Position numbers and translations under genes: made by a program
The notes under the pieces: generated by a model
Databases searched by the model: none
What the model was told of the DNA's origin: nothing
What the model saw: the letters and a program-made list of their open reading frames with translations, nothing else
In this document: piece by piece, positions 11,713 to 50,452 of the stretch
How positions within the stretch are numbered: the stretch's first letter is position 1
Layout: every line of letters begins with the position of its first letter
IMG/VR virus record: IMGVR_UViG_2721755676_000003
Coordinates: 1-51,015 of that record
Reading direction: 5' to 3' (one strand)
Origin: a virus
Lineage: Duplodnaviria > Heunggongvirae > Uroviricota > Caudoviricetes
DNA: 51,015 nt

Positions 11713-12046
11713 TTTTACTTTTCCTATGCACTATCCGCATGCTTTTAAGACTACTTGAAGACACAAACGTCGTCATCCACTAAAAGGTTCAAATTTGAGA
11801 TGATAGTTCGTTTCTGGTATGAAACGAACCGTTTGAAGAGCCGAGTGCTCTGCTAAGAGCCAGGAGTGGACGTTCTCAAAGCATTGCTTACATCGAGGAT
11901 GTATTAATCAACGGGGTGCAGGTCAATTGATCCATAAAAGGTTGAATGCTCTATACTAAGCACTAGTAAAAAACATTGCACAACATACACTTAAGGTTTA
12001 AATTGCTTATCACCAAAACATAAATTTAATCATAGGCTGATGGCGT

Positions 12047-13510: not shown

Positions 13511-13955
13511 AAAATTAGCATAATTCTATTAACTCATTGCCATTATCTTGACAAAACTAAATGGAAACTTGTCATATTTATTTCTTGAAAATATTTAATT
13601 ACTGGCTGTAGCAACTTTAACTTAGTGCGGGCATAGCTATGAATCTCCGATTGTACTGGCAGGGGGCTACAACTTTAGATGACTCACTCCCATCTTCAAC
13701 AAGCTAGCTGGCTGCCTTGTGTTGCGAGGATTCGTAATGATGATGTCAGTTTTGTCCGCTTCTGGCAAGAGGCGGACGAGATGGCTAGGCTTAAGACCTG
13801 CTGAAAGCCAGGAGCTGACATCACTACAACTTTTAATGCTAACTTCACTTAAAATAATTTTGGAATTTGCACATATGGGTTATATAAGTAAATCATCGCA
13901 ATGAGTTCTATGCGATAATTTTATATTTAGTCCCCATCTTTATCGGATGGTTCAT

Positions 13956-14729
13956 CTAAGCTTTAACTCGCCTGACAAGAGTTTTACTGCAACCTATACT
14001 GAGAAGGTGGCGTCGAAGATTTTTATCAATATGACTATCCAACGTGGTAATTAAAAACACTATATCCTCAATAACCTTAACAACATCCGAGCTTGATATT
14101 TTAGTGAGGCTTACCTTTGGTCTGTCACAATTATGGATACAATCATGTCTCCTCTGAATTAGCGAAGTATATCTGTTAGTTAGCTTTTCTAACATAGATT
14201 TCCGTTTTTTTTCTTTATCCTCTTTGGATAACTTTTTGTAAGCTGTTGGAGTGGTTCCCATAAGACGATGCTTCGCTGACTTATTTATCAACCAGTCCTC
14301 CATCATCGGCTTTGTTAATATTTTGTTTTTTTCATCCATGATATGATTGAACAAATCCTTAATTTTATCGATTGAAAGTACGTTATCTTTTTCAATCAAG
14401 TCACGTGCTGCATTTCGCCATTTCCAATTCGAAGTTGTATTCTGAGCATTCACGATAGAATTTATAGGTAACTTCAATGACCTTATCTTTGGGCTTAATT
14501 TGACATTGCTGTCAATGCTTTTTGCAATTAGGATTTTTGATAACACATCTGCAAATGCATCACAAAAATATGCATCAAGTGCTCCAATCGCAATCATCCA
14601 AGAGGCTCTATATATATCATCCTTTAGAGTCGATATAGGTAATGAATCAGCATGAGCTATAAGGTCTTTTGCTCTATTAATATCCTGATTAAAATGACTT
14701 AACGCTGTGCTTGGCATATAACACCTCAA
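13956..14729 (-). CDS. HEPN-like protein (candidate abortive-infection RNase)
   Basis: 257-aa ORF with C-terminal R-x4-H motif (LIQRRHDCIHNCDRPK) in a helical, lysine-rich protein; AT-rich. Confidence 0.4.
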   Translation of the reverse strand: MRCYMPSTALSHFNQDINRAKDLIAHADSLPISTLKDDIYRASWMIAIGALDAYFCDAFADVLSKILIAKSIDSNVKLSPKIRSLKLPINSIVNAQNTTSNWKWRNAARDLIEKDNVLSIDKIKDLFNHIMDEKNKILTKPMMEDWLINKSAKHRLMGTTPTAYKKLSKEDKEKKRKSMLEKLTNRYTSLIQRRHDCIHNCDRPKVSLTKISSSDVVKVIEDIVFLITTLDSHIDKNLRRHLLSIGCSKTLVRRVKA

Positions 14730-15040
14730 AATAAATGATTTATATGGTTAATTGGAAATGCAAAACTTAAATTTTAGTTTATACCGTTTGTTGCCAGAAT
14801 ACGATATATTCACAGATTCTAGACCATTAACATTGGCACTACAGCCAGATAATGAGTTTGAACGTACACCGTAGTATACTTTCTGATCTGCCCACCCCAA
14901 AAAAATTAGTACTATCTGGATTACCACAGTCCGCTCTTGTCACCCAAATGTTATTTTACCTTAATGACATTAGATTTCATTTGGATCAGATTGCCGCAAC
15001 TATCAGTGTGCGGCAAGTAGCTGAAGCATTCATAGAGTAT

Positions 15041-16285
15041 TTATGGGTCAAGGAGGGATTTAAACTGAGATATGGGATAGTCATATCGTTCGTTATAGAA
15101 TGCCGCAAGCTTGCAGTATTCTGCTAGGTGAGCATCTGGCCTGTATGGGACAATCGCTCCTTCAATCGATAGCTCAATACTATTAGTGACAATCAACATC
15201 AAGGCATGATCTTTAGTAAATAGTTGTTCTGAAAGTAAACGATATTTATTTTTAGGCTCGGAAATAGTTTTGAATGATTCGAACGTGTCATTAATAAACT
15301 GAAGTGCCAATGCTCCAGGTCGTTTTCCTGTCAGTTGTTTTTTTAACGCCCGCTTAGATACTTTCTCAACCTCTTTCCAAATTTGTACATCACCTGCGGA
15401 TACGACCCGAATTCCCTTTAATCGATGCTCAGAGTCATGGCAGGCCACTAACGCTGCTGTGGAGCCATGGAGTGTTTGTGCTGCATTGAAGACTACATTC
15501 TCATCAGTTTTATCTCCCAATAATGGGCAAAATTCTTCAACAACAGAAAACTTTTCGCTGTGTATATCGTTGCCTTGAGTTTCAATCTCGTCTACTAGGC
15601 GAGCCATAAATTCTTTGAAGCTTTTATCGTTCTTAGGCACAGGTTCCGTCAAAATGATGGTCAAGATACTTGCGAATCCTTCCTTTGCAGTGAGAAGTCT
15701 GTCGAGCGAGATTTTTTCCAGCAAAGCACCAATCAAGCGATGCCCATCTGCAAGACTAACAGCAAAACCTTTATCACCTGCGAAGGATTTGCACTCAAGC
15801 TCAAATGGAGGAAGCCCTTGAGGTGGGTAGACTAGAAGGTCAAAGGTCTCCTCGCCTTTACTTTCCTCTGGCCATTCAATGGAGCACCCCCTGGAGATTA
15901 GTGTTTTGGCCATATATAACTCGTACTGCAAAGCGCGCATGTCGCTGGCAAGCTTGAACGCACCCTCGAAACGTTTTTTGAGTTCCCTGGGGCCTGGTTC
16001 ACCTCTTTCCACTGCTTCACACAGTTCCACCACTCGCTGCACAAATAACATTGTCTGGAACATTGTATTCCATTCGTATCCCGCATTTAATGCATACTGA
16101 TTTCTATCCCAAAACGTCAAACCGAATGCTACTGAGTTTTCTAATTCTTCCTGTCCACCACGTCCAGCAAATTGATTTGAAAGTAACTTTATGTCCTGAA
16201 CGACCTTCAGCCAAGGCTTTAAAGGGAAAAGCTTGACTAAACGGTTATAAATATCAGGGAAGCTAAGCATAATGAGGGGCATCAA
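15041..16285 (-). CDS. Hypothetical 414-aa protein with PD-(D/E)xK-like motif
   Basis: ETFDLLVYPPQGLPPFELECKSF (D...E-x-K) suggests a nuclease fold; otherwise unrecognised. Confidence 0.45.
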   Translation of the reverse strand: MMPLIMLSFPDIYNRLVKLFPLKPWLKVVQDIKLLSNQFAGRGGQEELENSVAFGLTFWDRNQYALNAGYEWNTMFQTMLFVQRVVELCEAVERGEPGPRELKKRFEGAFKLASDMRALQYELYMAKTLISRGCSIEWPEESKGEETFDLLVYPPQGLPPFELECKSFAGDKGFAVSLADGHRLIGALLEKISLDRLLTAKEGFASILTIILTEPVPKNDKSFKEFMARLVDEIETQGNDIHSEKFSVVEEFCPLLGDKTDENVVFNAAQTLHGSTAALVACHDSEHRLKGIRVVSAGDVQIWKEVEKVSKRALKKQLTGKRPGALALQFINDTFESFKTISEPKNKYRLLSEQLFTKDHALMLIVTNSIELSIEGAIVPYRPDAHLAEYCKLAAFYNERYDYPISQFKSLLDP

Positions 16286-16790
16286 ATATTATCTCCTTAG
16301 GTCAGCGCTTAAACAAAACTCCATCTTTAATACAACGTTTAATCTGCAAGAGCATACTACAGTGAATATCTGGGCGTCATATGCCCAATGCCCGAAAGCA
16401 TAATATGTATGCCTTTTAGCTGAAACTGGCCTTCACTCTGCAGACCTGAATACGTCACAAGCAAGGACCAGAGTAGTATCGGCATTGGTTGTGAAATCTT
16501 TAATTCACATGATGAGAGCATTATGCAACGGGTACTTTAACGATGATACCGAAGCGAGAACCTTTCTTGCAGGTTCTCGCTATAGGGCTTGGTAATAGCA
16601 TGTTGCTTGTCAGTCATGCCACATACCCAAACGTTCATTCTTGCTTCCGCTTTAAAACACTCAATCCACAGAAACTACAAGTCTTCACGCTGGAAGTAAC
16701 CTGTTGTTTGTTTGGGGGGCACATAATCTCAGTAAGTTACATTGTGATCTCATAAAACGTTGCAAAATCCGTTACATAAGTTTATAAAAG

Positions 16791-16810
16791 CACTGTACAT
16801 GCATACAGTG
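16791..16810. promoter_or_regulatory. LexA (SOS) box upstream of dinI-like gene
   Basis: Perfect palindrome CACTGTACATGCATACAGTG (CTGT-N8-ACAG) about 20 nt upstream of the dinI-like ATG. Confidence 0.55.
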
Positions 16811-16828
16811 ATTCGTTGCGGAGGGAAA

Positions 16829-17053
16829 ATGAAAATCGAGCTAACCATTGATCGCATGAAGAAACTTCCTGATGGAGCTATACCTGCGCTCGAGTCAGAA
16901 CTGCTCGAAAGACTCAGCAAGCAGTTTGATGATTGCCAGCTTACGATTAGGCGTGCCAGTAATGATGGTTTGACTGTTTTCTGGGGCGACAAGAAAGAGG
17001 TCGAACATATCGTGCAGGAGACCTGGGAAAGCGCGGACGAGTGGTTTTATTAA
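16829..17053 (+). CDS. dinI: DinI-family protein
   Basis: MKIELTIDR...VQETWESADEWFY matches recalled E. coli DinI (MRIEVTIAK...LQETWESADDWF); start at internal ATG with RBS GAGGGA. Confidence 0.8.
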   Translation: MKIELTIDRMKKLPDGAIPALESELLERLSKQFDDCQLTIRRASNDGLTVFWGDKKEVEHIVQETWESADEWFY

Positions 17054-35704: not shown

Positions 35705-36508
35705 ATGAAAAAAATTGTAGGTGTGTTATTTCTTTCCTTCTTATTAGCTGGGTGCGATAAACCTAAAATTGACTCATCAACTGATGAAGCAATGAAATCA
35801 TCTATAGCCAAGGTCAGAGAATCACTTCCGGAAAATAAACGGGAGGAATTTGATAGCGCTTTAAAGGTCGTAGCGTTCAGTAACATTAATATGGCTGACC
35901 TAATGCGAGCATCGTCAGAAAGTGACAAAGAAGATCTAAGCAAGAAGATGCGCGAGCCCCTGTCAGGCAAAACTGGAGAGGAAATCATCTCTTATGCTCA
36001 GCAAGTAACTGCCGAGAGGGAACTTAAGCAGAAAGAGCAGGCAATTCAGGAAATCAAAGAGCTTGAACAGAAAAAAGCTGACTCTGAGAAGGCTAAAGAA
36101 GAACTCAAAAAAGTACAGGTTCTATCATCTCGATTTAGCCTGGAACCTGAAGAGTATGGGAAGCCACAACCTATTATTCGCCTTGTTGTGAAAAACAATA
36201 CTGATAAAGCTATTTCCCGTGTGTACTTCAATGGAGTGATAGCCAGCGATGGACGTTCAGTTCCATGGCTGGAAAAAGATTTTAACTACGAAATTGCTGG
36301 CGGGCTTGAACCGGGTGAAGAAGCTACTTGGGCATTGGCTCCGAATAAGTTTTCTGAATGGGGTCAGGTTGATGCTCCAGCTGATGCGGTCTTCACAGTT
36401 ACAGTAACGAGAGTCAATGGGGCAAATAAAGAAGCGATGTTTGATGCTTCCGGCTTTACAGAGCAAGAAAACAGCAGGCTTGAAGATTTAAAGAAAAGAT
36501 ACCTTTGA
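35705..36508 (+). CDS. Lipoprotein of unknown function (moron inserted between tape-measure and M genes)
   Basis: Signal peptide plus lipobox (MKKIVGVLFLSFLLAGC); Lys/Glu-rich coiled region; AT-rich; own terminator. Confidence 0.6.
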   Translation: MKKIVGVLFLSFLLAGCDKPKIDSSTDEAMKSSIAKVRESLPENKREEFDSALKVVAFSNINMADLMRASSESDKEDLSKKMREPLSGKTGEEIISYAQQVTAERELKQKEQAIQEIKELEQKKADSEKAKEELKKVQVLSSRFSLEPEEYGKPQPIIRLVVKNNTDKAISRVYFNGVIASDGRSVPWLEKDFNYEIAGGLEPGEEATWALAPNKFSEWGQVDAPADAVFTVTVTRVNGANKEAMFDASGFTEQENSRLEDLKKRYL

Positions 36509-38449: not shown

Positions 38450-39127
38450 GTGAGGCGAGTACCAAATACTAGTTCTAACTATATAAATAGTGATGAATAC
38501 AATGATTTATTTCATGATCATATGGACAAGGCTTTAGAGCGAGCTCTTGATACTAGAAAGTTTGAAATTGATCTATATTGGCGTCGCGCCACCTATTTTT
38601 GGACGTTCATAGGTGCTACATTCGGTGGGTTCTTTGTCGCATACGCTTCAACCTCACCTAAAAGGCAAGACTTATTAGTTATTCTTTGTTGTTTGGGGGT
38701 GGCTTTCTCGTTTGCATGGTTTTGTGTTAATAAAGGCAGTAAATACTGGCAAGAGAACTGGGAGAAGCACGTCGATCTTCTTGAAAATAAGTCGATTGGT
38801 CCATTGTATAAAATTGTCCTAACAAGAAATGAAGATATGACACTCCGGCAAAAAGCTTTTGATGTAATAACGGGTCCTGCAGCTTTATCAGTCTCGAAAA
38901 TTAATCAATTGATTAGCCTGTTTGTGTTAATGCTTTGGGTTGTGTTGCTTGTGAATTCCTTACTTCCGTTGGATTTCAACCTTCCATTTAAATGGTTTTA
39001 TATCATTCTTGTATTTACAACTATTCTTTTTTGCGGATTGGTAATGCTGCTAGGACGTACATATCATGGAGGGCATTATCATTTGGCAACGCTGAGGCAA
39101 TCTCGAATAAAACCTGAATCGGAATAG
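38450..39127 (+). CDS. Multi-pass membrane protein of unknown function (moron between K and I; candidate abortive-infection or exclusion effector)
   Basis: AT-rich ORF with several predicted TM helices (YFWTFIGATFGGFFVAYAS; LLVILCCLGVAFSFAWFCV; LISLFVLMLWVVLLV; FYIILVFTTILFCGLVMLL); start uncertain (GTG 38450 or ATG 38522); own terminator. Confidence 0.5.
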   Translation: MRRVPNTSSNYINSDEYNDLFHDHMDKALERALDTRKFEIDLYWRRATYFWTFIGATFGGFFVAYASTSPKRQDLLVILCCLGVAFSFAWFCVNKGSKYWQENWEKHVDLLENKSIGPLYKIVLTRNEDMTLRQKAFDVITGPAALSVSKINQLISLFVLMLWVVLLVNSLLPLDFNLPFKWFYIILVFTTILFCGLVMLLGRTYHGGHYHLATLRQSRIKPESE

Positions 39128-39818: not shown

Positions 39819-42800
39819 ATGGCTACACCTACCCCGATTAGAGGCCGCAAGGGCGGCAGCTCCAGTTCCCGAACCCCTACCGAACAGCCAGATGATCTGC
39901 AGTCAGTAGCCAAGGCAAAAATCCTTCTCGCCCTGGGAGAGGGGGAGTTTGCTGGTGGCCTTACTACGCGCGATATTTATCTCGATGGCACCGCACTTGA
40001 GAACGCAGATGGTTCACAGAACTTCAGCGGTGTGGCATGGGAGTTTCGTTCTGGAACTCAGGCGCAAAAATACATTCAAGGGATCCCGGGTACCGAAAAT
40101 GAAATCAATGTAGGTTCCGAAGTTTCCAGCACCACCGCATGGACGCGCACGTTCACCAATACGCAGCTATCAGCTGTTCGCCTGCGTCTAAAATGGCCTT
40201 CTCTCTTTAAACAGGAGAACAATGGCGATCTGGTTGGTTACTCGGTTAATTATGCGATTGACCTGCAGACAGATGGCGGCACCTGGCAGACAGTGCTGAA
40301 TACCAGCGTGACCGGGAAAACTACCTCAGGTTATGAACGCAGCCACCGTATTGATTTACCTCAGGCTGGCAGCACCTGGACAATCCGACTGCGTAAGATT
40401 ACCACTGACGCAAATAGCGCGAAGATTGGCGACACGATGACGCTGCAAAGCTTCACAGAAGTAATCGACGCCAAACTGCGCTATCCGAACACCGCGCTAC
40501 TGTACATCGAATTTGATTCGAGCCAGTTCAATGGCTCAATACCGCAAATTTCCTGCGAGCCTCGCGGGCGTGTTATTCGTGTGCCCGATAACTATGACCC
40601 GGAAACACGAACGTACAGCGGCACCTGGACGGGCGCATTTAAGTGGGCATGGACGGATAACCCTGCGTGGATATTTTACGATCTGGTGGTCACTGACCGC
40701 TTCGGCCTCGGTAATCGGCTAACGGCAGCCAATATCGACAAATGGACGCTTTATCAGGTCGCTCAGTACTGTGATCAATCGGTACCGGACGGTAAGGGGG
40801 GGAGCGGAACTGAACCGCGTTACACCTGCAACGTTTACATTCAGGATCGGAATGACGCTTACACCGTCCTGCGTGATTTTGCTGCAATCTTCCGTGGGAT
40901 GACCTACTGGGGCGACGACCAGATTGTTGCCCTTGCAGACATGCCCAGAGATGTCGATTTTACCTACACGCATGCAAACGTTGTTGACGGCAAATTTGTG
41001 TATTCCAGCAGCACAACCAAAAGTCGCTACACGAACGCTCTTGTATCCTGGTCTGATCCGGCAAATGGGTATGCTGATGCAATGGAGCCTATCTTCGAAC
41101 AGGAGCTGGTGGCGCGCTATGGTTTCAACCAGCTTGAGATCACCGCCATCGGTTGCACCAGACAGTCTGAGGCTAACAGGAAAGGGCGCTGGGGGATCCT
41201 GACTAACAATAAAGACAGGGTTGTAACGTTTGACGTTGGCTTGGACGGCAATATTCCTCAGCCGGGCTACATAATTGCTGTTTCTGACCGAAATCTTTCA
41301 GGGAGAGATTTAGGCGGTCGATTATCCGCGGTTAATGGTCGCGTCCTTAAGCTTGACCGGGTGCCAAGTGCTAAGGCCGGTGACAGGATAATGGTAAACC
41401 TGCCGTCGGGTATTACCCAATCCCGGACGATTCAGTCCCAGTCCGGTGAAATGGTCACCGTAACAACTTCCTTTAGTGAACTTCCGCAGGCTGAGGCTGT
41501 ATGGGTAATTGAATCTTATGAACTCTATGCGCAGCAGTACAGGGTAATTAGTGTCACCGATAACAATGACGGGACATATACCATCACGGGGGCAAATCAC
41601 GATCCGGATAAATATGCCCGAATCGATACGGGTGCCATCATTGATCAGCGGCCGGTAAGTGTCATCCCTCCAGGTAATCAGTCGCCGCCAGCCAACATCG
41701 CGATCAGCTCGTTTTCTGTAGTGCAGCAAAATATCAGCGTCGAAACGATGCGCGTGAGCTGGGACCAGGCGCAGAACGCTATCGCCTATGAAGCGCAATG
41801 GCGCCGCAACGACGGGAACTGGGTTAACGTACCGCGCAGCTCCACCACGTCATTCGACGTCTCGGGGATTTATGCCGGGCGCTACTTGGTGCGCGTGCGC
41901 GCAATCAATGCCGCAGAAATTTCATCCGGATGGGGCTATTCAGAAGAGAAAACGCTGACGGGTAAAGTGGGCAATCCACCGAAGCCGGCCGGCTTCATTG
42001 CGTCTGAAAACGTGGTATTCGGCATCGAGCTGAATTGGGGATACCCGGCGAATACCGATGATACGCTGAAGACGGAAATCCAGTACAGCCTGACAGGTAC
42101 CGAAGACGATGCGATGCTGCTGGCCGATGTGCCTTACCCGCAGCGCAAATATCAGCAGATGGGTCTTAAGGCTGGGCAGATTTTCTGGTACCGCGCGCAG
42201 CTGGTGGACCGCAGCGGCAACGAATCAGGTTACACAGAATGGGTGCGCGGTCAGGCCAGTATCGATGTGTCCGACATCACCGATGTGATCCTGGAAGAGA
42301 TTAAAGACTCGGATACCTTCAAGGACCTGATCGAGAACGCGGTGGACAGCAACGAAAAAATTGCTGGCATGGCTGACGAAATCAAAAACCATGCCGACGA
42401 ACTCGAGCAGCAGGCGAAAGACATCCAGGAGAACGCTGACGGGTTGGCGCAGGCCGAAGTGAAGATCGACGAGATTTCTGTGTCTATGGACGGCATGACG
42501 GGAGGCGTGAAAAACTCGGCAATCGCGATTATCCAGAATGGGCTGGCGCAGGTTGTCAGTCGTCGTTCCCAGACAGCAACAAACGCCGGGAATAGCGCCA
42601 GTATAGACCGTGTTGATACGACGATTGCCGATGCCAGCCAGGCGGTAGCACGCGCGCTGGTCACTCTGGATGCAGAAGCTGGTAGCAATATTTCTAACTC
42701 AACAGACCTGACAGAAACACTTGCTGATTTCACACAGGCATCGGCGACAAAAATTAACTCCCTGACGGTTAAATCTGGCGAAAACAGTGCCGCGATAAAC

Positions 42801-43259
42801 GTCAACGCACAGGCTATCGCAGATGTAAACGGTAACCTAAGTGCGATGTACAACATCAAGGTTGGTGTCTCCAGCAATGGGCAGTATTACGCCGCGGGGA
42901 TGGGGATCGGCGTTGAGAACACGCCATCCGGCATGCAGTCGCAGGTTATCTTCCTGGCTGATCGCTTCGCCGTCACCACGGCAGCCGGAAATAGCGTGGC
43001 TTTGCCGTTCGTGATCCAGAGCGGGCAGACATTCATCCGAGCCAGCTTCATCCAGGACGGCACCATTGAGAACGCCAAAATCGGCAACTATATCCAGTCG
43101 AATAACTATGTGGCTGGTTCTGCTGGCTGGAAGCTTGATAAAGGGGGAACGTTCGAAATCAACGGCGTGGCCGGGGGCGGGAGGATGCTGATATCGAGCA
43201 CTCTCATTCGTATCTATGACAGCAACAACGTGCTGCGCGTCAGAATGGGGTTATGGTAA
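39819..43259 (+). CDS. Host-specificity / central tail fibre protein J
   Basis: 1146-aa ORF after I; lambda J-like N-terminal region; FN3-like middle; divergent C-terminus. Confidence 0.85.
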   Translation: MATPTPIRGRKGGSSSSRTPTEQPDDLQSVAKAKILLALGEGEFAGGLTTRDIYLDGTALENADGSQNFSGVAWEFRSGTQAQKYIQGIPGTENEINVGSEVSSTTAWTRTFTNTQLSAVRLRLKWPSLFKQENNGDLVGYSVNYAIDLQTDGGTWQTVLNTSVTGKTTSGYERSHRIDLPQAGSTWTIRLRKITTDANSAKIGDTMTLQSFTEVIDAKLRYPNTALLYIEFDSSQFNGSIPQISCEPRGRVIRVPDNYDPETRTYSGTWTGAFKWAWTDNPAWIFYDLVVTDRFGLGNRLTAANIDKWTLYQVAQYCDQSVPDGKGGSGTEPRYTCNVYIQDRNDAYTVLRDFAAIFRGMTYWGDDQIVALADMPRDVDFTYTHANVVDGKFVYSSSTTKSRYTNALVSWSDPANGYADAMEPIFEQELVARYGFNQLEITAIGCTRQSEANRKGRWGILTNNKDRVVTFDVGLDGNIPQPGYIIAVSDRNLSGRDLGGRLSAVNGRVLKLDRVPSAKAGDRIMVNLPSGITQSRTIQSQSGEMVTVTTSFSELPQAEAVWVIESYELYAQQYRVISVTDNNDGTYTITGANHDPDKYARIDTGAIIDQRPVSVIPPGNQSPPANIAISSFSVVQQNISVETMRVSWDQAQNAIAYEAQWRRNDGNWVNVPRSSTTSFDVSGIYAGRYLVRVRAINAAEISSGWGYSEEKTLTGKVGNPPKPAGFIASENVVFGIELNWGYPANTDDTLKTEIQYSLTGTEDDAMLLADVPYPQRKYQQMGLKAGQIFWYRAQLVDRSGNESGYTEWVRGQASIDVSDITDVILEEIKDSDTFKDLIENAVDSNEKIAGMADEIKNHADELEQQAKDIQENADGLAQAEVKIDEISVSMDGMTGGVKNSAIAIIQNGLAQVVSRRSQTATNAGNSASIDRVDTTIADASQAVARALVTLDAEAGSNISNSTDLTETLADFTQASATKINSLTVKSGENSAAINVNAQAIADVNGNLSAMYNIKVGVSSNGQYYAAGMGIGVENTPSGMQSQVIFLADRFAVTTAAGNSVALPFVIQSGQTFIRASFIQDGTIENAKIGNYIQSNNYVAGSAGWKLDKGGTFEINGVAGGGRMLISSTLIRIYDSNNVLRVRMGLW

Positions 43260-43555: not shown

Positions 43556-44193
43556 GCGGATTCGAAGTTTACAACAGCGACGGAAAACTGCTGGTGGATT
43601 CACAAAACAGATCGACCCTTTTTTATGATCAGCGCACGCTGAGTGGCGTCACCGATAAAGGCGCCTACCGCGTTAACAGCCCGTTTGGTGATGGTAGTAC
43701 GCTCGGCTTTACGCAGCAGTCATTCTGGAATGACGGCCGTTTAAGGTGGCTGCAGCTGGGCACGAACAAATACGGTTTTCCTGGTGCTGATATGCTTGAA
43801 GATAATGCTGGTAGCATGATCCGAACTGCGCGAAATATTGGCTTGCAGAGTGGTTATCTCGATGTGTTTGACAGTGCCGGCAGCCTTATCTGGAGCGCTG
43901 CATCAGCCTCAAAGATGCCGAGAGTTGTTGGGTTCTTTGACGTACCAGCTAACTATGACCTGCAGAACAATACCTTTTCAGTCAGTTTAAGCTTCAACCC
44001 TTGGATTCTGGTAAACAACTGCCCGGGAAACCTCAGCGATGATGGTACGGTTGTCGGGTATTCTGGTGTGGTGCTCAAATGGACTGGCTCTCAACTGCAG
44101 GGCAGATACATTTCAAATAACCAGCGCAGCTGGAGCCAGACGTTTCAGGGGCGGGGCCTAAGAATCCCCATCGCTCAGTTTGTTGGCATTTGA
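43552..44193 (+). CDS. Hypothetical tail-associated protein
   Basis: 213-aa ORF, ATGA-coupled. Confidence 0.45.
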   Translation: MSGFEVYNSDGKLLVDSQNRSTLFYDQRTLSGVTDKGAYRVNSPFGDGSTLGFTQQSFWNDGRLRWLQLGTNKYGFPGADMLEDNAGSMIRTARNIGLQSGYLDVFDSAGSLIWSAASASKMPRVVGFFDVPANYDLQNNTFSVSLSFNPWILVNNCPGNLSDDGTVVGYSGVVLKWTGSQLQGRYISNNQRSWSQTFQGRGLRIPIAQFVGI

Positions 44194-44520
44194 GACGGGA
44201 GGAACGTGCGGATAATGAGTCGCGATCATATCTTGTTTTACGCCCTTTGCTGAATTGAAGCGATAAACCACATCCAGCTTATCCGTTTTTTTATAACAAA
44301 TATTACTTAACCGTTTTTTAATATGTCGGCTGAATATTCCGTTGCTGCTGTCTAAAATAACTTCCACCTCTCTGGTGGCACAGTCGATATTAACGTGAAT
44401 ATCGCCACCCAGCGATAAACGAGCGGCATCAACGGGATAGTCCATCTGGAATGCGTTATCTGTGTGTTTGTTCGTACATCCAGCCAACAGCAAAAGCGCT
44501 GCAGCAAATAAAAGTTTCAT
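44158..44520 (-). CDS. Lipoprotein (candidate receptor-blocking / superinfection-exclusion moron)
   Basis: Signal peptide plus lipobox MKLLFAAALLLLAGC; opposite strand; AT-rich; 3' end overlaps the upstream convergent ORF by 36 nt. Confidence 0.5.
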   Translation of the reverse strand: MKLLFAAALLLLAGCTNKHTDNAFQMDYPVDAARLSLGGDIHVNIDCATREVEVILDSSNGIFSRHIKKRLSNICYKKTDKLDVVYRFNSAKGVKQDMIATHYPHVPPVSNANKLSDGDS

Positions 44521-44646: not shown

Positions 44647-45912
44647 ATGCTTTATAACACCGGCACCATCGCAATTAACGGAAATACCGCAACCGGTACT
44701 GGCACAAACTGGACGGCACCAGTCAGCCAGGTTCGCGCTGGCCAGACGATTATCGTGATGTCTAACCCGGTGCAGCTGTTCCAGATTTCATCTGTGGACA
44801 GCGCCACGTCAATGACGGTTACGCCTGCCGCTTCCCCGGCGCTGAGCGGCCAGAAGTACGGCATTCTGATATCAGACAATATCTCTGTAGACAGCCTGGC
44901 GCAGGCGATGTCGCAGCTCATCAAAGAGTATGATGAGAATATCGGCGCCTGGGAGACGTTCGCTACCACATCCGCAAATCAGACTATCACCGTTACTATC
45001 AACGGATCTTCCGTAAATATTCCGGGCATAGGTGCACTTGCCAGAAAGGGGGCGAATAGCGATATCACGGAGCTGAAAGGGCTCACTACTGCGCTTTCTA
45101 TTGCACAGGGTGGCACCGGGGCAACGAAGGCAGAAGACGCTCGCACAAACCTCGGTTTAGGAAGTAGCGCGACGAAGGACGTCGGAACTGCCTCCGGGAA
45201 TGTCATGCAAGTTGGGGCGGGCGGTTTTTTGGTTAGTACGCCTACATTGATAGCAGAAAACAACAGCCGCTATCCTTCAAGCTTTATGCGATCTGGTGGA
45301 GGGAGTGGGAAAATTGGATTCGGCTCTGGTATTTATTGCTCCTACGATGACTCCATTTGCTTTCATCTCCATATTCAGGGTAATGGTGAACTCCATTATA
45401 GATATTTGAATGCTGGCCTTATTACCTATGACTACGTTGCTTACTCTACAGGAAACACCACAAAGGCGAGCGATGGCACCCTAAAAGCTGCGTCCCCGGT
45501 TGCCCGTATCGTAGCGAGCCAGGAAGCCTGCCAGCGCGTTGATATAGCGGAGGATGGATTCGCATGGTGCGGCTGTGGAACGGCGAACTCTGAGGCGGAG
45601 GGAATAACTCTTTCTCGCCTCGACGTAGGTGTTTACGTGATCGCGGGTTCGGCAGGTCTGGCGTCAGAGGGATGGCAACTGCTGCCGCCAATGGACCCTG
45701 GCGGAATGGGAGAGCTGGGTGTAGTTGAGGCAGAGCAAACCGAGAACGGCGAGCTGACAATCCGCCTGTTTAAGCGCAGATACATGCTGAGCGATGACGG
45801 AGAGATGATCAAAACCAAAGGAGAGCTGATGGATGTTCCGGCGAACAGCTGGATCGATGTTCGCCTGGATATGCCCGCAGATTCACTGTTTAACCAGCGA
45901 ATGAGTCAGTAG
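44647..45912 (+). CDS. Side tail fibre protein (constant N-terminal part plus currently fused variable C-terminal segment)
   Basis: 421-aa ORF, RBS GAGGT; Gly/Thr/Ser-rich fibre repeats; internal gix-like recombination site at about 45140-45165. Confidence 0.7.
   Translation: MLYNTGTIAINGNTATGTGTNWTAPVSQVRAGQTIIVMSNPVQLFQISSVDSATSMTVTPAASPALSGQKYGILISDNISVDSLAQAMSQLIKEYDENIGAWETFATTSANQTITVTINGSSVNIPGIGALARKGANSDITELKGLTTALSIAQGGTGATKAEDARTNLGLGSSATKDVGTASGNVMQVGAGGFLVSTPTLIAENNSRYPSSFMRSGGGSGKIGFGSGIYCSYDDSICFHLHIQGNGELHYRYLNAGLITYDYVAYSTGNTTKASDGTLKAASPVARIVASQEACQRVDIAEDGFAWCGCGTANSEAEGITLSRLDVGVYVIAGSAGLASEGWQLLPPMDPGGMGELGVVEAEQTENGELTIRLFKRRYMLSDDGEMIKTKGELMDVPANSWIDVRLDMPADSLFNQRMSQ
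45140..45193. repeat. Left inverted repeat with gix/hix-like crossover site (..CACAAACC TC GGTTTAGGAAGT..)
   Basis: Matches recalled gix consensus AAACC-TC-GGTTTACAGGAA; inverted partner at about 46539-46580; inner arms about 18/20 identical (gcgacgaaggacgtcggaac versus gcaacgaaggacgttggaac). Confidence 0.5.
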
Positions 45913-46578
45913 GCTGAGGCTTAGTGTTTCCCTCTAATGCGCTGACGCGGGTTGCCAGCGCTTTGATTGCCGCCAGCCCATCGAGCAACATTGGTGTCTG
46001 ATCGAGATGCAGCAGACCGCCAATTTGCTTTACATATTCTGGGTCGATTTTCTCTATTTGCTGAGAGATAACCCCGCGCCGTGGGGGTTGAGTTTCATCA
46101 TCTTTAAAGGTGAAGTGCTTGAATTCCATCCGGCAGATATTCAGCAATGCCTCTTCCAGATCGAGGTCATCACCGATGTTTTTCATAGTTCTGTCGGACA
46201 CCGCCGAAGTTAAAATTTCTTTCCACGGTGCCCAGGCATTGGTATTAAAACCTCTGTAAAAGAACCGCCCGGCATCTGTTTGCGTGGCATAAGGCAAGAT
46301 AAATTGAGTCGATGCACCGCTGCTGCCTACAATTCGGACATAGTTTTGAATATACCCGTATCCGCTTGCCGCTGGTGGGTTTACAGCGGTAGTGAAATTG
46401 ATGAGGTTAGGAAAAACACCAGGGTTCCGCGCATCATTCAAATTGATGGTGTTTGAAGGTAAAGCCGAGTCAATCTGGAAGAACCTGTAGGCGTCCACCG
46501 GCCCCCCAAGTCCACCGACAACCTGAACGTTTCCTTCGCTCGTTCCAACGTCCTTCGTTGCTGATGTTCCTAAACCTA
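45890..46578 (-). other. Alternative tail-fibre C-terminal segment (S'v-like), promoterless, within invertible segment
   Basis: Minus-strand ORF whose 5' end begins at the right inverted repeat with ...LGLGTSATKDVGTSEGNV..., paralleling the plus-strand ...LGLGSSATKDVGTASGNV...; the ORF-track N-terminal extension is antisense to the invertase remnant. Confidence 0.5.
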
Positions 46579-46580
46579 GA
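46539..46580. repeat. Right inverted repeat / gix-like site
   Basis: Reverse complement of ..GTTCCTAAACC TA GAGGGAGTTG.. gives GGTTTAGGAAC plus the shared inner arm. Confidence 0.45.
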
Positions 46581-46792
46581 GGGAGTTGATTGTGGAGCGC
46601 ACCCGGGCAGGTCTGGCTGCAGCTCGTGAGAAATGGCGAATCGGCGGCAGGCGTCCGAAGCTTACCCAGGAACAATGGGATCAGGCGGGCCGACTTATTG
46701 CGAACGGCCTGGACAGGAATCAGGTAGCGATAATTTATGACGTTGCTGTATGCACGCTTTATAAAAAATTCCCTCCTTCAAAAAAGGCTTAA
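46580..46792 (+). pseudogene. DNA invertase (Gin/Pin/Hin serine recombinase) remnant: C-terminal HTH domain only
   Basis: RELIVERTRAGLAAAREKWRIGGRRPKLTQEQWDQAGRLIANGLDRNQVAIIYDVAVCTLYKKFP matches the C-terminal roughly 70 aa of Gin/Pin; the frame opens exactly at the right gix-like site; no N-terminal catalytic domain upstream. Confidence 0.6.
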
Positions 46793-46964: not shown

Positions 46965-47384
46965 ATGGAATTTATCAGGCCTGCGGAACTGCGTGAAATT
47001 CTCGCTCTCCCGCTTTTCAGTGACTTAGTTCAGTGTGGTTTCCCAAGTCCAGCAGCTGATTACGTTGAACAACGTATCGATCTCAATGAGTTACTTGTCG
47101 CTCACCCGAGCTCAACGTATTTCGTCAAAGCCGCGGGCGATTCTATGATCGAAGCCGGGATCAGCGACGGTGATCTGCTGGTAGTGGACAGTTCCAGGAC
47201 TGCTGAGCATGGTGACATTGTCATCGCTGCGGTGGAAGGGGAGTTCACTGTTAAACGCCTGCAGCTGCGCCCGACCGTGCAACTCAATCCTATGAACAGC
47301 GCCTACAGTCCGATTGTTGTTGGCAGTGAAGACACACTGGACGTGTTTGGCGTTGTTACTTTCATCGTTAAATCTGCGAGCTGA
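46965..47384 (+). CDS. umuD: UmuD (Pol V accessory subunit, LexA-like S24 self-cleaving peptidase)
   Basis: [72 protein letters not shown]... near-identical to recalled E. coli UmuD; includes the Cys-Gly cleavage site and Ser/Lys dyad. Confidence 0.9.
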
Positions 47385-47386
47385 AC

Positions 47387-48655
47387 ATGTTTGCGCTCTG
47401 TGATGTGAATTCGTTTTACGCATCATGCGAGACGGTGTTTCGGCCCGATTTGAGAGGGCGGCCAGTAGTTGTTCTCTCGAATAATGACGGCTGCGTAATC
47501 GCGCGCAGCGCCGAGGCCAAAGCCGCCGGAATTACCATGGGAGAGCCTTTCTTTAAGCAAAAGGATCTATTCCGGCGCGCTGGTGTTGTTTGCTTCAGCA
47601 GTAACTACGAGCTGTACGCAGACATGTCGAACCGGGTAATGACGACGCTTGAGGAAATGAGCCCCCGCGTCGAAATTTACAGTATCGATGAAGCTTTTTG
47701 CGACCTGACTGGCGTTCGCAACTGCCGGGACCTGACTGACTTCGGCAAAGAAATTCGTTCTACGGTTCTAAAGCGTACGCACCTGACGGTTGGGGTTGGA
47801 ATTGCGCAGACAAAAACGCTCGCTAAGCTGGCCAATCACGCCGCGAAGAAGTGGCAGAGGCAGACGGGTGGAGTTGTTGATTTGTCCAATATCGATCGCC
47901 AGCGTCGGTTATTGGCAATTGTGCCTGTGGAGGATGTCTGGGGCGTCGGCAGGCGCATCAGTAAGAAGCTAAACGCCATGGGCATCAAAACGGCTCTGGA
48001 TCTCTCAGAACAAAGCACATGGATTATCCGTAAACATTTTAACGTGGTACTCGAGCGAACGGTCCGGGAGTTGCGCGGAGAGCCTTGTCTTGAGCTGGAG
48101 GAGTTTGCGCCGGCAAAGCAGGAAATCGTCTGCAGCCGATCGTTCGGCGAGCGCGTCACGGACTATGAGCAGATGCGTCAGGCTATCTGCAGCTATGCGG
48201 CGCGTGGCGCCGAAAAGCTTCGCGGCGAGCATCAGTATTGCCGTTTTATCTCGGCGTTCGTTAAGACGTCACCTTTTGCCCTGAATGAGCCATATTACGG
48301 TAATAGTGCGTCCATGAAGCTTCTTACTCCCACTCAGGATTCCCGCGACATCATCAACGCCGCGGTAAAGTGCCTGAACAAAATCTGGAAGGACGGCCAC
48401 CGCTATCAAAAAGCAGGAATCATGCTTGGGGATTTTTTCAGCCATGGTGTGGCTCAGCTCAACTTGTTCGATGAGAACGCGCCGCGCGAAGACAGCGCGC
48501 AACTGATGCAGATCCTTGACCAGCTCAATGCCAAAGGAGGAAAGGGCACACTCTACTTTGCAGGGCAGGGAATTCAGCAACAATGGCAGATGAAGCGAGA
48601 AATGCTTTCTCCGCGGTATACGACCCGCTTCCAGGATTTATTAATTGTTAAATAA
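47387..48655 (+). CDS. umuC: UmuC (Y-family translesion DNA polymerase V catalytic subunit)
   Basis: [41 protein letters not shown]... canonical UmuC N-terminus; 422 aa. Confidence 0.92.
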
Positions 48656-49145: not shown

Positions 49146-49817
49146 TCACTGAATATTATCAATCAATTCAGCACCCTGATTTTTTGGATTATCAACGGCA
49201 CGCGACACTGCGTGCCAGATAAACTTGTCGGCGTCCACTGTGCCGTCGGCCGCTATCTCTTCAGCTTCTTTCCCGCCTATATCCTGCCGCATCCATTCGC
49301 GAGCTGCTTCCGGCGACAGAACCAGTGGCCGGCGGTCGTGAATTTCGACCAGTCCTTTGTCAGCTGCAGACGTCACTATCAGAAAACCTTCTGCTTCATC
49401 GCCGCGCTCAAACGGTGTGCTGCCGATCGCCGCCATGAAAATCGGCTGTCCGTCGGCGCGGTGAATGAAGTAGGGCTGCTTCTTGTCACCTTCCTTCTTC
49501 CATTCGAACCATCCATCCGCAAAGCAGATCGCCCGGCCATGCTGCCAGAGGGGCTTAAACATTCGACTGGTGGCCGCAGTCTCGACACGCGCGTTAATCA
49601 GTGGTGGTTTATCCCACCACCCGGGCGCGTAACCCCAGAAAACCGGATCAAGATGCAGTTGCTCGTCGCGTTCGCTCAGCAACAGAACTTTGGTACCGGG
49701 CGCGACGTTGTACCGGCCAATCGGCTCAGGGTCATATGCTATGTCGCGATCGGCTTCATCGGCCAGGTAAGCAAGATATTCTTCACGGGTTTGGGCTTGT
49801 GCAAAACGTCCACACAT
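49146..49817 (-). CDS. SOS-response-associated peptidase (SRAP, YedK/HMCES family)
   Basis: Begins MCGRF (catalytic Cys2), 223 aa; family hallmarks recalled. Confidence 0.8.
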   Translation of the reverse strand: MCGRFAQAQTREEYLAYLADEADRDIAYDPEPIGRYNVAPGTKVLLLSERDEQLHLDPVFWGYAPGWWDKPPLINARVETAATSRMFKPLWQHGRAICFADGWFEWKKEGDKKQPYFIHRADGQPIFMAAIGSTPFERGDEAEGFLIVTSAADKGLVEIHDRRPLVLSPEAAREWMRQDIGGKEAEEIAADGTVDADKFIWHAVSRAVDNPKNQGAELIDNIQ

Positions 49818-50194: not shown

Positions 50195-50452
50195 ATAGTA
50201 TGCTTCGCCCATATTTTTGGTGGCGGATATGCTGCAGGTTATTACGCTTATCTGTGGACGCAAATGTTGGCCGATGATGGTTACCAGTGGTTTGTTGAGC
50301 AGGGCGGATTAACGCGTGAAAATGGGCAGCGTTTTCGCGAGGCGATCCTTTCCAGAGGTAACAGCGAAGATCTGGAACGCCTGTATCGACAATGGCGCGG
50401 TAAGGCTCCTCAAATTATGCCGATGCTGCAACATCGTGGCTTGAACATATAA
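50195..50452 (+). pseudogene. dcp: Orphan 3' fragment of dcp (peptidyl-dipeptidase, M3 family)
   Basis: Frame open only from about 50195, encoding ...HIFGGGYAAGYYAYLWTQMLADDGYQWFVEQGGLTRENGQRFREAILSRGNSEDLERLYRQWRGKAP..., the conserved M3-peptidase C-terminus; preceded by an in-frame stop and AT-rich non-coding DNA. Confidence 0.65.

What the first reader, a model, noticed from the sequence alone, without database searches (positions are those of the whole stretch)
45140..46792. Decayed invertible tail-fibre segment: gix-like inverted repeats, alternative fibre C-terminus on the opposite strand, invertase reduced to its C-terminal HTH
Seen: a site within stf (..AAACC TC GGTTTAGGAAGT..) resembles the recalled gix/hix crossover consensus and has an inverted partner about 1.4 kb downstream, with about 18/20-identical inner arms. 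Between them the plus strand encodes the current fibre C-terminus, and the minus strand encodes a promoterless alternative C-terminus beginning with the same LGLG(S/T)SATKDVG junction. Immediately right of the segment an ORF encodes only the C-terminal about 70 aa of a Gin/Pin-type invertase, and the frame opens exactly at the right crossover site. Inference: this was a Mu G-segment-like host-range switch whose invertase lost its catalytic domain. The fibre is now fixed unless an invertase acts in trans.
Basis: partly seen in the sequence, partly recalled or inferred. Interest (0 to 1): 0.65.

Follow-up and report, generated by a model that had tools for sequence, protein, structure and literature searches.

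The report
Tail-fibre switch locked by self-deletion
A prophage in a pig-gut E. coli carries a once-reversible DNA switch for swapping the tip of its tail fibre; the switch is a known kind, but it is now frozen because the switching enzyme recombined with a look-alike site inside its own gene and removed the front half of that gene.

Summary
Window 45140-46792 is a Gin/Cin/Pin-type invertible tail-fibre cassette of an otherwise intact-looking lambdoid prophage (E. coli 210205630). It has a constant stf 5' part, a complete left crossover site (CTCGCACAAACC TC GGTTTAGGAAGT), an expressed Phage_tail_C_2 tip on the plus strand and a silent, intact Peptidase_S74 tip on the minus strand. Only residues 116-185 (HTH) of a 185-aa 'Fin' invertase remain. 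Intact relatives (phage LLS, E. coli ABWA45 and CX21, Enterobacter cloacae) have the same layout. Seven of eight in-silico flipped fibres of those relatives exist as exact proteins in public assemblies, so they do switch. The flipped version of this element was not found, and eight contigs share one orientation and one junction. New here: 421 bp are missing, from the 2-bp core of the right site to a secondary site at invertase codons 114/115 (GAAATG GA GAGGGAG). An Enterobacter hormaechei prophage used the same intragenic site for an inversion, and undoing it restores both genes exactly. So the lesion was almost certainly made by the invertase. Rescue in trans is unlikely: the outer half-site and probably the enhancer are gone, and the cores no longer match (TC versus TA). 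This is a new member of a known kind and moderately interesting.

The parts
44647..45151 (+). Constant 5' part of the side tail-fibre gene stf (codons 1-168, ending ...EDARTNL), which lies outside the invertible segment
   Evidence: ORF 44647-45912. This part is 83-91% identical in DNA to the tail-fibre genes of HK639, ECP1, HK542, LLS and HK022-type phages.
45140..45165 (+). Complete left crossover site (IR-L): CTCGCACAAACC TC GGTTTAGGAAGT, with the core dinucleotide TC at 45152-45153
   Evidence: It matches the annotated IR-L of phage LLS and the left sites of ABWA45, CX21, L005 and L006.
45152..46578 (.). The former invertible segment (1427 bp, core to core), holding two convergent fibre tips whose 3' ends overlap by 23 nt (45890-45912)
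   Evidence: Window 45454-46579 aligns in reverse orientation to L005 6630-5505 (84.6%). The in-silico inversion stays in frame.
45154..45912 (+). The expressed fibre tip (253 codons), with a Phage_tail_C_2 C-terminal domain
   Evidence: Pfam PF25670, 109.7 bits, profile 1-133 of 133. It is 85-89% identical in DNA to fibres of the plaque-forming E. coli phages ECP1, HK542 and HK639. The exact protein is present on 8 public contigs.
45890..46576 (-). The silent alternative fibre tip (229 codons, GLGTSATKDVG... to the stop), with a Peptidase_S74 intramolecular-chaperone domain. It has no start codon or promoter of its own at the junction; PGAP calls an internal 202-aa ORF
   Evidence: Pfam PF13884, 34.7 bits against a cut-off of 22. 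The SDRTMK Ser-x4-Lys motif is present. Fused in silico to the constant part, it is 91% identical at 100% coverage to 397-aa E. cloacae fibres P0001-P0003.
46565..46590 (+). Hybrid right site and deletion junction: TGTTCCTAAACC TA GAGGGAGTTGAT. The inner half-site is intact, the core reads TA (46577-46578; GA in relatives), and the outer half is replaced by invertase codons 115-119
   Evidence: Intact relatives read TTCCYAAACC GA CGTTT(T/A)ATAGAT at this position. E. hormaechei L018 carries the same junction with GA.
46577..46792 (+). Invertase remnant. Codon 115 is now TAG (GAG in relatives), followed by codons 116-185 (RELIVERT...FPPSKKA*), which is the end of helix E plus the HTH DNA-binding domain. 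The catalytic domain, promoter region and first 114 codons are absent
   Evidence: HTH_7, E 1e-13. Alignment to intact fin genes is, and tblastn finds only residues 116-185 in the whole window. PGAP marks it as a pseudogene missing its N-terminus. Private replacements at otherwise invariant residues (EKG->EKW, QWAQ->QWDQ) and a raised dN/dS (0.11-0.12 against 0.03-0.05) are.

Best explanation
This is a tail-fibre tip switch of the Gin/Cin/Pin/Min ('Din') type, belonging to a roughly 50-kb lambdoid prophage. In the working form, a serine invertase (Fin) encoded just right of the segment flips a roughly 1.4-kb cassette between two 26-bp sites that share a TC/GA core. Either a Phage_tail_C_2 tip or a Peptidase_S74 tip is then joined in frame to the constant stf 5' part at the LGLG junction. 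In this element the switch is locked with the Phage_tail_C_2 tip expressed. The lock was made by site-specific recombination between a bona fide site and a secondary ('quasi') site inside the invertase gene, at codons M114/E115 (CTCGC.GAAATG GA GAGrGAGTTGAT). The simplest route is a deletion between the right site and the quasi-site, which lie in direct orientation. An alternative route is an inversion between the left site and the quasi-site followed by a deletion. Either route removes 421 bp: the outer half-site, the 77-bp spacer with the fin promoter region, and codons 1-114, which carry the catalytic domain and, by homology with Hin, Gin and Cin, the Fis enhancer. A later G-to-T change turned the hybrid core GA into TA. 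Shown here: the anatomy, the homology, switching in relatives, the nucleotide-exact junction, and use of the same intragenic site in another genome. Inferred: that the invertase catalysed the event in this lineage, that the enhancer is lost, and that the two tips confer different host ranges.
For: Five intact relatives share the layout and the sites (left AAACC TC GGTTT; right AAACC GA CGTTT): LLS, where IR-L, IR-R and 'serine-type DNA invertase Fin' are annotated, plus ABWA45, CX21, E. cloacae L005 and L006. L005 also shares the downstream umuDC-like and SRAP genes and holds the segment in the opposite orientation. All in-silico inversions give in-frame full-length fibres, and 7 of 8 of them exist as exact sequences in public assemblies. 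The window's flipped fibre does not exist there, while its current fibre is on 8 contigs, and the one compared base by base (L012) has the identical junction. Homology to the right site ends at 46576 and homology to fin starts at 46578. Intact fin genes read AAATG GA GAGGGAGTTGAT at that point. The predicted product is therefore AAACC GA GAGGGAG, and the window differs from it by one base. E. hormaechei CP047570 (L018) has exactly that GA junction and also the reciprocal one: stf constant part, then CAAACC TC CATTTCGGCGAG, with fin residues 1-115 on the opposite strand. Re-inverting between the two cores restores a 382-aa in-frame fibre, an uninterrupted 185-aa invertase and canonical IR-L and IR-R. 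The two events are independent. The remnants differ by 13% in DNA (dS 0.49, dN/dS 0.12), while the split L018 gene shows no decay. The left half of the quasi-site matches the IR-L outer half at 9 of 12 positions in L005, and the site ranks 2nd among GA-centred positions in the fin region of both L005 and L006.
Against: No experiment or read-level data show that this segment cannot flip; the eight contigs may all come from one clone. The junction core reads TA, not the predicted GA, so one extra mutation must be assumed. DNA invertases disfavour deletion between directly repeated sites, so the one-step route would be a rare event. The one-step and two-step routes give identical products and cannot be told apart. 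The quasi-site scores poorly as a whole site (negative position-weight-matrix score, and rank 26-263 of about 620 in some relatives). Scans of viral, GTDB-representative and metagenome contigs found no further junctions. The enhancer position is inferred only; a crude scan for Fis motifs was inconclusive.
Confidence: 0.85

Rival explanations
1. The 421-bp loss is an ordinary illegitimate deletion (replication slippage on the 3-nt microhomology GAG) that happens to end at the crossover core. The invertase played no part.
For: The two partners share only GA(G) at the junction plus AAA upstream. The junction core is TA, not GA. Wild-type invertases rarely delete.
Against: Both breakpoints fall on special positions to the base. 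The left one is in the 2-bp core of a bona fide site. The right one is at the intragenic position that an independent genome (L018) used for a clean reciprocal inversion. For random ends in a spacer of about 100 bp and a gene of about 550 bp, the joint chance is of order 1e-4.
Confidence: 0.08
2. The switch is still operational, flipped in trans by one of the other Pin-family invertases in the chromosome, as reported for EC958 prophage Phi4, which also has a truncated invertase.
For: Four further pinE-like DNA matches exist in the same chromosome. EC958 Phi4 inverts despite a truncated invertase (PMC4134206). The left site and the inner half of the right site are intact.
Against: The cores differ (TC against TA), which by established Hin, Gin and Cin biochemistry blocks religation in the recombinant configuration. 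The outer half-site is gone. The 5' part of fin, where the cis enhancer lies in Hin, Gin and Cin, is gone, whereas Phi4 keeps the 5' part of its gene. The flipped fibre is absent from the 15-billion-protein collection, while the current one is on 8 contigs. For intact relatives, 7 of 8 flipped forms are present.
Confidence: 0.05
3. There never was a switch here. The minus-strand ORF is a free-standing 'S74 family peptidase' gene, as PGAP annotates it, and the HTH ORF is an unrelated small regulator.
For: PGAP calls a 202-aa CDS and a 'helix-turn-helix domain-containing protein'. The inverted repeat alone is only marginally significant.
Against: The minus-strand frame is open from the crossover itself and lacks any fibre N-terminal domain. 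Fused to the stf constant part, it reproduces real 397-aa fibres at 91% identity and 100% coverage. The HTH ORF is collinear with residues 116-185 of intact invertases at 74-87% DNA identity to the Fin-type genes (63% to pinE) and is preceded by half a crossover site.
Confidence: 0.02

Closest known systems
Escherichia phage LLS tail-fibre inversion module (genes 22-24, IR-L/IR-R, 'Fin' invertase; PQ299149; Genome Res 2025, PMC12315714)
   Same: It has the same lambdoid context (J, two small ORFs, a minus-strand lipoprotein, then stf). The IR-L is near-identical and the stf constant part is 86% identical in DNA. It has an oppositely oriented promoterless tip, and its invertase is about 87% identical in DNA to the remnant.
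   Different: LLS is intact: full 182-aa Fin, both half-sites and a GA core. Its tips are different sequences. Switching in LLS was proposed from the sequence, not demonstrated. The window element has lost fin codons 1-114 and the outer half-site.
Phage Mu G segment / Gin and phage P1 C segment / Cin
   Same: A serine invertase lies next to an invertible segment. The fibre has a constant 5' part and alternative 3' parts in opposite orientation. The 26-bp sites have AAACC..GGTTT half-site cores and a 2-bp crossover core. The purpose is host-range switching. This rests on established knowledge plus PMC3575834 and PMC4134206.
   Different: Those are myovirus fibres with a co-inverted assembly-chaperone gene (U/U'). 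Here the fibre is a siphovirus side tail fibre with no chaperone gene; one tip carries its own S74 intramolecular chaperone. And here the switch is dead.
Cin recombination at quasi-cix sites (Iida & Hiestand-Nauer 1986, 1987, as cited in PMC4134206) and Gin-mediated deletions (Plasterk et al. 1983, as cited in PMC3575834)
   Same: Recombination occurs between a bona fide site and a poorly matching secondary site that shares the core dinucleotide, giving inversions or deletions. That is the pattern seen in L018 and in the window.
   Different: Those cases were found on plasmids and in laboratory constructs. Here the secondary site lies inside the invertase's own coding sequence, and the products are fixed in natural prophages. 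I found no report of that in the searchable library, though most of the older literature is not held there.
E. coli EC958 prophage Phi4 (truncated invertase, segment still inverting in trans; PMC4134206)
   Same: It is a prophage fibre switch whose own invertase gene is truncated.
   Different: Phi4 keeps both complete 26-bp sites and the first ~60 codons (5' end) of the gene, and both orientations were seen in reads. The window element keeps only the 3' end, has half a right site and mismatched cores, and is seen in one orientation only.
e14 P segment / PinE and p15B Min multiple-inversion system
   Same: PinE is 72% identical to the remnant. Relatives L003, L004 and L005 have three tips and three sites, like a small Min-type shufflon.
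   Different: e14 sites use a TT/AA core, so the GA-centred intragenic site would not pair with them. The e14 segment carries tfa genes.

Membership tests
Din-family (Gin/Cin/Pin/Hin/Min/Fin) invertible tail-fibre switch | An adjacent serine invertase gene with the catalytic N-terminal domain (Resolvase, PF00239, active-site Ser) plus a C-terminal HTH | tested here: not met
   Only residues 116-185 (HTH_7) remain, and no other invertase-like sequence is in the 51-kb window. The feature is met in relatives L002-L006.
Din-family (Gin/Cin/Pin/Hin/Min/Fin) invertible tail-fibre switch | Two complete 26-bp crossover sites in inverted orientation with identical 2-bp cores | tested here: not met
   The left site is complete with core TC. 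The right site has only its inner half, its core is TA, and its outer half is fin coding sequence.
Din-family (Gin/Cin/Pin/Hin/Min/Fin) invertible tail-fibre switch | A constant fibre 5' part outside the segment, and alternative 3' parts inside it on opposite strands that are in frame after inversion | tested here: met
   In-silico inversion gives a 397-aa ORF that is 91% identical over its full length to real fibres.
Din-family (Gin/Cin/Pin/Hin/Min/Fin) invertible tail-fibre switch | A cis-acting Fis-dependent recombinational enhancer (in Hin, about 100 bp from the hix site next to hin; by background knowledge this lies within the hin 5' coding region) | tested here: inconclusive
   The homologous region (fin nt 1-342 plus the spacer) is deleted. 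A crude Fis-motif scan of intact relatives found conserved candidates at +28 and +100 but no clear pair spaced 48 bp apart. The expected position comes from PMC3798978.
Din-family (Gin/Cin/Pin/Hin/Min/Fin) invertible tail-fibre switch | Both orientations occur in nature or in a population | tested here: not met
   The flipped fibre is absent from the collection, and the current fibre is on 8 contigs with the same arrangement; the one compared base by base (L012) has the identical junction. For intact relatives, 7 of 8 flipped fibres are present. Read-level data were not available.
Din-family (Gin/Cin/Pin/Hin/Min/Fin) invertible tail-fibre switch | Tail-fibre assembly chaperone genes co-inverted with each tip (Mu U/U', P1 U/U', e14 tfaE/tfaP); typical of the family but not strictly defining | tested here: not met
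   The two tips fill the segment and overlap at their 3' ends; there is no further ORF with a Caudo_TAP match.
Peptidase_S74 intramolecular-chaperone fibre or spike C-termini | A Pfam PF13884 match above the gathering score, and a Ser-x4-Lys catalytic dyad | tested here: met
   The match scores 34.7 bits against a cut-off of 22, covering profile 1-58 of 58. The motif VSDRTMK is present. Autoproteolysis itself cannot be tested here.
Secondary-site (quasi-site) recombination by a DNA invertase | The junction lies exactly at the 2-bp core of a bona fide site, and the partner carries the same core dinucleotide | tested here: met
   Homology to the right site ends at 46576 and homology to fin starts at 46578. 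Intact fin genes have GA at that point, and L018 has the GA junction.
Secondary-site (quasi-site) recombination by a DNA invertase | The reciprocal product is present, and reversing the event restores both partners | tested here: met
   This is met in E. hormaechei L018, where re-inversion restores a 382-aa fibre, a 185-aa invertase and both canonical sites. In the window itself the reciprocal product (an excised circle) cannot be recovered.
Secondary-site (quasi-site) recombination by a DNA invertase | The event depends on the invertase protein | not testable with these tools
   This needs an in-vivo or in-vitro recombination assay.

The most novel reading that the evidence does not exclude
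Fin-type invertase genes, and possibly others whose sites use a GA/TC core such as Gin, may carry a hard-wired self-destruct site. The site would be codons M114-E115 of helix E (ATG|GA), whose core dinucleotide cannot be changed synonymously. Recombination between this intragenic site and the bona fide fibre sites would then recurrently and irreversibly convert a phase-variable host-range switch into a fixed fibre. The route is a deletion here and an inversion that also breaks stf in E. hormaechei. On this reading, the decay of these switches in prophages is largely self-inflicted rather than random erosion.
Probability: 0.4. Interest if true: 0.55.

Novelty: new member of a known kind. Interest (0 to 1): 0.42.

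Why it matters
Invertible fibre cassettes are the classic way temperate phages hedge their bets on host range. Knowing whether a given prophage can still switch affects host-range prediction and phage engineering. This case shows that a locked switch can be told from a live one by sequence alone, using half-site integrity, matching cores, presence of the 5' invertase region, and whether the flipped protein exists in public data. It also gives nucleotide-level natural evidence that a DNA invertase can act on a weak secondary site inside its own gene. That is an off-target activity relevant to the use of serine invertases as genetic memory and logic devices, and a plausible general route by which such switches die. 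The switch itself is textbook biology and close relatives are already annotated, so the gain is incremental.

Tried and rejected
1. I scanned viral contigs, genome contigs (GTDB representatives) and metagenome contigs for the right junction (CCYAAACCNNGAGRGAGTTRAT, with and without an extension). I scanned genome contigs and viral contigs for the reciprocal junction (AAACCTCCATTTCNGCNAGNGCTGACAT). All gave 0 hits, so no third case was found there. These collections contain neither of the two source strains.

2. I examined other HTH-only remnants found with the remnant as query.
- P0195 (L015/L016) breaks upstream of the quasi-site.
- P0197 (L017) retains upstream fin sequence with a frame disruption, and an IS3-type transposase gene lies about 0.6 kb upstream.
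- P0201 (L019/L020) is a mutated but continuous gene.
- P0246 (L021/L022) breaks 3 nt from the same point next to a GGTTTACC motif and remains unresolved.

3. A search with a hypothetical fusion of the fin N-terminus to antisense stf found no protein spanning the junction. The many Salmonella Typhi 'site-specific recombinase' variants that diverge after ...ERTRA proved to be scaffolding artefacts with an N at the join. P0338 (...AEMNVN) is a 1-nt frameshift.

4. The truncated invertase of EC958 Phi4 stops at about codon 60, not at the quasi-site.

5. e14 pix sites use a TT/AA core, so I did not search for e14-type junctions.

6. To locate other invertases in the genome, chimeric BLAST queries showed 4 additional pinE-like places in the chromosome. 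The tool gives no coordinates for them, so whether they are intact is unknown.

7. A Fis-motif scan to place the enhancer was inconclusive.

8. I could not decide between the one-step (deletion) and two-step (inversion then deletion) routes. The associations between inverted-repeat flanks and tips are mosaic among relatives.
Full report
**Source and context.** The window is the reverse complement of E. coli strain 210205630 (swine cecum) chromosome NZ_CP015912.1, at 100% identity. It spans a lambdoid prophage of about 50 kb, from the integrase (window 1-1140) to a duplicated dcp 3' fragment (50204-50452). The terminase, portal, capsid, tail, J, lysis, replication and immunity genes are all annotated as intact. 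The only pseudogene in the fibre region is the invertase remnant. The order around the finding is:
- J (39819-43259)
- two small ORFs
- a minus-strand lipoprotein (44158-44520)
- stf (44647-45912)
- a minus-strand S74 ORF
- the HTH-only ORF (to 46792)
- a umuD/umuC-like pair
- an SRAP gene

**Checking the observation.** The repeat finder reports arms 45151-45188 and 46542-46579: 38 nt, 79% complementary, 1353 nt apart. On its own this is only modestly above chance, since 8 of 200 shuffles reach its +1/-1 score. Comparative evidence settles it.
- Left site: this is a full 26-bp crossover site, CTCGCACAAACC TC GGTTTAGGAAGT (45140-45165).
- Plus strand: stf continues through the site into a 253-codon tip with a complete Phage_tail_C_2 domain (E 1.5e-31).
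- Minus strand: a 229-codon frame opens at the right crossover with GLGTSATKDVG and carries a Peptidase_S74 domain (E 2.3e-8) with an SDRTMK Ser/Lys motif.
- Remnant: 46580-46792 encodes RELIVERT...FPPSKKA (HTH_7, E 1e-13). This is residues 116-185 of a 185-aa invertase, and nothing else in the window resembles an invertase.

**Intact relatives.** Phage LLS (PQ299149) has the same gene order. Its annotation marks IR-L (AAACCTCGGTTTGGGAAGTAGCGCGACGAAGGACG...), an oppositely oriented second fibre gene, IR-R and a 'serine-type DNA invertase Fin'. Its authors proposed Mu/P1-like tip switching from the sequence (PMC12315714). E. coli ABWA45 and CX21 and Enterobacter cloacae loci L005 and L006 are further intact versions with two or three tips. 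In all five, left sites read AAACC TC GGTTT and right sites read TTCCYAAACC GA C(G/C)TTT. L005 shares the downstream umuDC-like and SRAP genes with the window. It holds the homologous segment in the opposite orientation: window 45454-46579 equals L005 6630-5505 reversed, at 84.6%.

**Is the silent tip a real alternative tip?** I joined the stf constant part to the minus-strand frame at the crossover. The 397-aa product matches annotated full-length E. cloacae fibres at 91-92% identity and 98-100% coverage. The silent tip therefore has no frameshift or stop.

**Do relatives actually switch?** I inverted each relative in silico at its cores, and every product is an in-frame full-length fibre. 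An exact-sequence look-up found 7 of the 8 flipped relatives' fibres in public assemblies. The window's flipped fibre was not found, while the window's current fibre is present. It lies on 8 contigs with the same arrangement. The one compared base by base (L012) differs by a single SNP over 9.3 kb and has the identical junction.

**The lesion.** Aligned to intact loci, homology to the right site ends at 46576 (…TTCCTAAACC) and homology to fin begins at 46578. The gap is 421 bp relative to L005 and L006. Intact fin genes read GC.GAAATG GA GAGGGAGTTGAT at that point, which is codons 111-119 (AEM-ERELI). Both partners therefore carry GA at the join, and the predicted product is AAACC GA GAGGGAG. 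The window has AAACC TA GAGGGAG, one base different; that change also turns codon 115 into TAG. In L005 the left half of this intragenic sequence (CTCGCAGAAATG) matches the IR-L outer half-site at 9 of 12 positions. With a half-site weight matrix, the site ranks 6th of 624 positions and 2nd among GA-centred ones in L005, but lower in some other relatives.

**Independent proof that the intragenic site is used.** I searched with the remnant and found another HTH-only ORF, P0178, in the complete genome of E. hormaechei CP047570. Its upstream junction is CTTCCTAAACC GA GAGAGAGTTGAT, the predicted form with GA. Ten kb of context (L018) show the reciprocal junction. The stf constant part runs into ...CGCTCAAACC TC CATTTCGGCGAG. 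After that come fin residues 1-115 on the opposite strand (100% identical to L005 Fin), the reversed spacer and the reversed right site. Re-inverting between the two cores restores three things at once: a 382-aa in-frame S74 fibre, an uninterrupted 185-aa invertase, and canonical IR-L and IR-R. This is a clean site-specific inversion between IR-L and the intragenic site. It cannot be an assembly artefact caused by a repeat, because the partners share only 3 nt.

**Independence and timing.** The two events are independent. The remnants differ by 13% in DNA (dS 0.49, dN/dS 0.12), while L018's split gene is undecayed. The window remnant shows mildly relaxed constraint (dN/dS 0.11-0.12 against 0.03-0.05 among intact pairs). 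It also has private changes at invariant residues (EKG to EKW and QWAQ to QWDQ). This fits a deletion that is not very recent but not ancient, and the silent tip is still intact.

**Mechanism.** For the working state I rely on the established biochemistry of Hin, Gin and Cin. Invertase dimers bind each 26-bp site and a Fis-bound enhancer in cis assembles the invertasome. Staggered 2-bp cuts at the cores are followed by a 180-degree subunit rotation and religation, which requires matching cores (PMC3798978; PMC3575834). For the lock, the simplest route is a deletion between the right site and the intragenic site, since both carry GA on the same strand. Gin-mediated deletions and Cin recombination at quasi-sites are precedents, cited in PMC3575834 and PMC4134206. 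A two-step route, an L018-type inversion followed by deletion between the two TC-cored sites, gives the same product. I could not tell the two routes apart.

**Can it be rescued in trans?** Chimeric BLAST queries show four other pinE-like stretches in the same chromosome; their coordinates and intactness are unknown. EC958 Phi4 shows that inversion in trans is possible when both sites and the 5' part of the gene survive. Here the outer half-site is gone, the cores differ (TC against TA), and the region expected to hold the enhancer is deleted. That last point is an inference, because my Fis-motif scan was inconclusive. Together with the single orientation in all public contigs, I rate trans rescue as unlikely (about 5%).

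**Comparison with known systems and novelty.** The element works like the Mu G, P1 C, e14 P and p15B Min switches, and it is a decayed sibling of the LLS 'Fin' module. It differs from the classics in three ways:
- It sits in a lambdoid side tail fibre.
- It has no co-inverted chaperone genes; one tip has an S74 intramolecular chaperone.
- In some relatives it has three tips.

As it stands it fails the membership tests for an active switch: no catalytic domain, no complete right site, mismatched cores and one orientation only. Its ancestry in the family is nonetheless clear. The kind is known and near relatives are annotated, so this is a new member of a known kind. The part I could not find in the searchable literature is an invertase destroying its own gene through a secondary site within it, seen twice independently in natural prophages. 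The core of that site (ATG|GA, M114/E115) cannot be altered synonymously and matches the GA/TC core of this family's sites. e14, with a TT/AA core, would be immune. Whether this is a frequent route is open. Pattern scans of three large collections found no more cases, and several other truncated invertases turned out to be unrelated lesions or scaffolding artefacts.

**Host-range inference (not tested).** The expressed tip resembles those of the plaque-forming E. coli phages ECP1, HK542 and HK639 (85-89% DNA identity). The silent S74 tip's closest full-length matches are in Enterobacter cloacae-complex prophages. The prophage may therefore be frozen in the state suited to its present host genus.

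Noticed in passing
window 46965-48655 (+) and 49146-49817 (-): A umuD-like S24 peptidase and a umuC-like Y-family polymerase, followed by a small ORF and an SRAP (YedK-like) gene, sit as cargo just right of the fibre switch. The umuD/umuC-like pair follows the invertase, or its remnant, in Enterobacter relatives L005, L018 and L019 too; the SRAP gene is also seen in L005. This looks like a conserved SOS and DNA-damage-tolerance moron block.
   Followed up: partly
window 1-1140 and 50204-50452: The prophage is integrated in the 3' end of dcp. An intact dcp lies just beyond the integrase end, and a 249-nt 'M3 metallopeptidase, missing N-terminus' fragment lies at the other end. The window begins exactly at the integrase gene.
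   Followed up: partly
window 10876-16285: This is a cluster of defence-like cargo between the replication and late genes. It comprises a restriction endonuclease, a SEC-C metal-binding domain protein (487 aa), a HEPN-domain protein and a 414-aa hypothetical protein (RefSeq names only; not analysed).
   Followed up: no
window 35705-36508, 38450-39127 and 44158-44520 (-): Three non-structural inserts lie inside the tail module: a DUF6694 lipoprotein, a 'RipA family octameric membrane protein', and a 120-aa lipoprotein on the opposite strand between the tail-tip genes and stf. The last one is conserved in phage LLS as gene 21. They may be superinfection-exclusion or surface-modifying morons.
   Followed up: no
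L018 (E. hormaechei CP047570.1) 2832-4691 and 16473-16973: The E. hormaechei prophage that underwent the suicide inversion also has an ORF combining Phage_portal and Phage_Tail_Tip domains, which implies a large internal deletion from portal to J. About 6 kb away, near a colicin-M-like gene, there is a second invertase homologue (61% identity).
   Followed up: no
invertase codons 114-115 (window 46577-46579 is the mutated codon 115): The intragenic crossover core coincides with Met114 of helix E. In Gin, M114V is the Fis-independent hyperactive mutation (PMC3575834). The core ATG|GA cannot be changed synonymously.
   Followed up: partly
L021 5990-6010 and L022 1055-1075: A Salmonella-like HTH-only invertase remnant (P0246, 10 contigs) is preceded by ...CCACCCGGTTTACC ATGGAGAGGG.... 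A half-site-like GGTTTACC is joined to the invertase 3 nt upstream of the same crossover point, and this occurs in two different upstream contexts. It may be a third secondary-site event in a different register.
   Followed up: partly
L024 and L025 (Salmonella Typhi draft assemblies): Several deposited 'site-specific recombinase' proteins of 138-251 aa fuse invertase residues 1-124 to varied sequences, including a tail collar domain. In the two examined at the DNA level (L024, L025) the join carries a single N, so these are scaffolding artefacts in draft assemblies rather than biology.
   Followed up: yes
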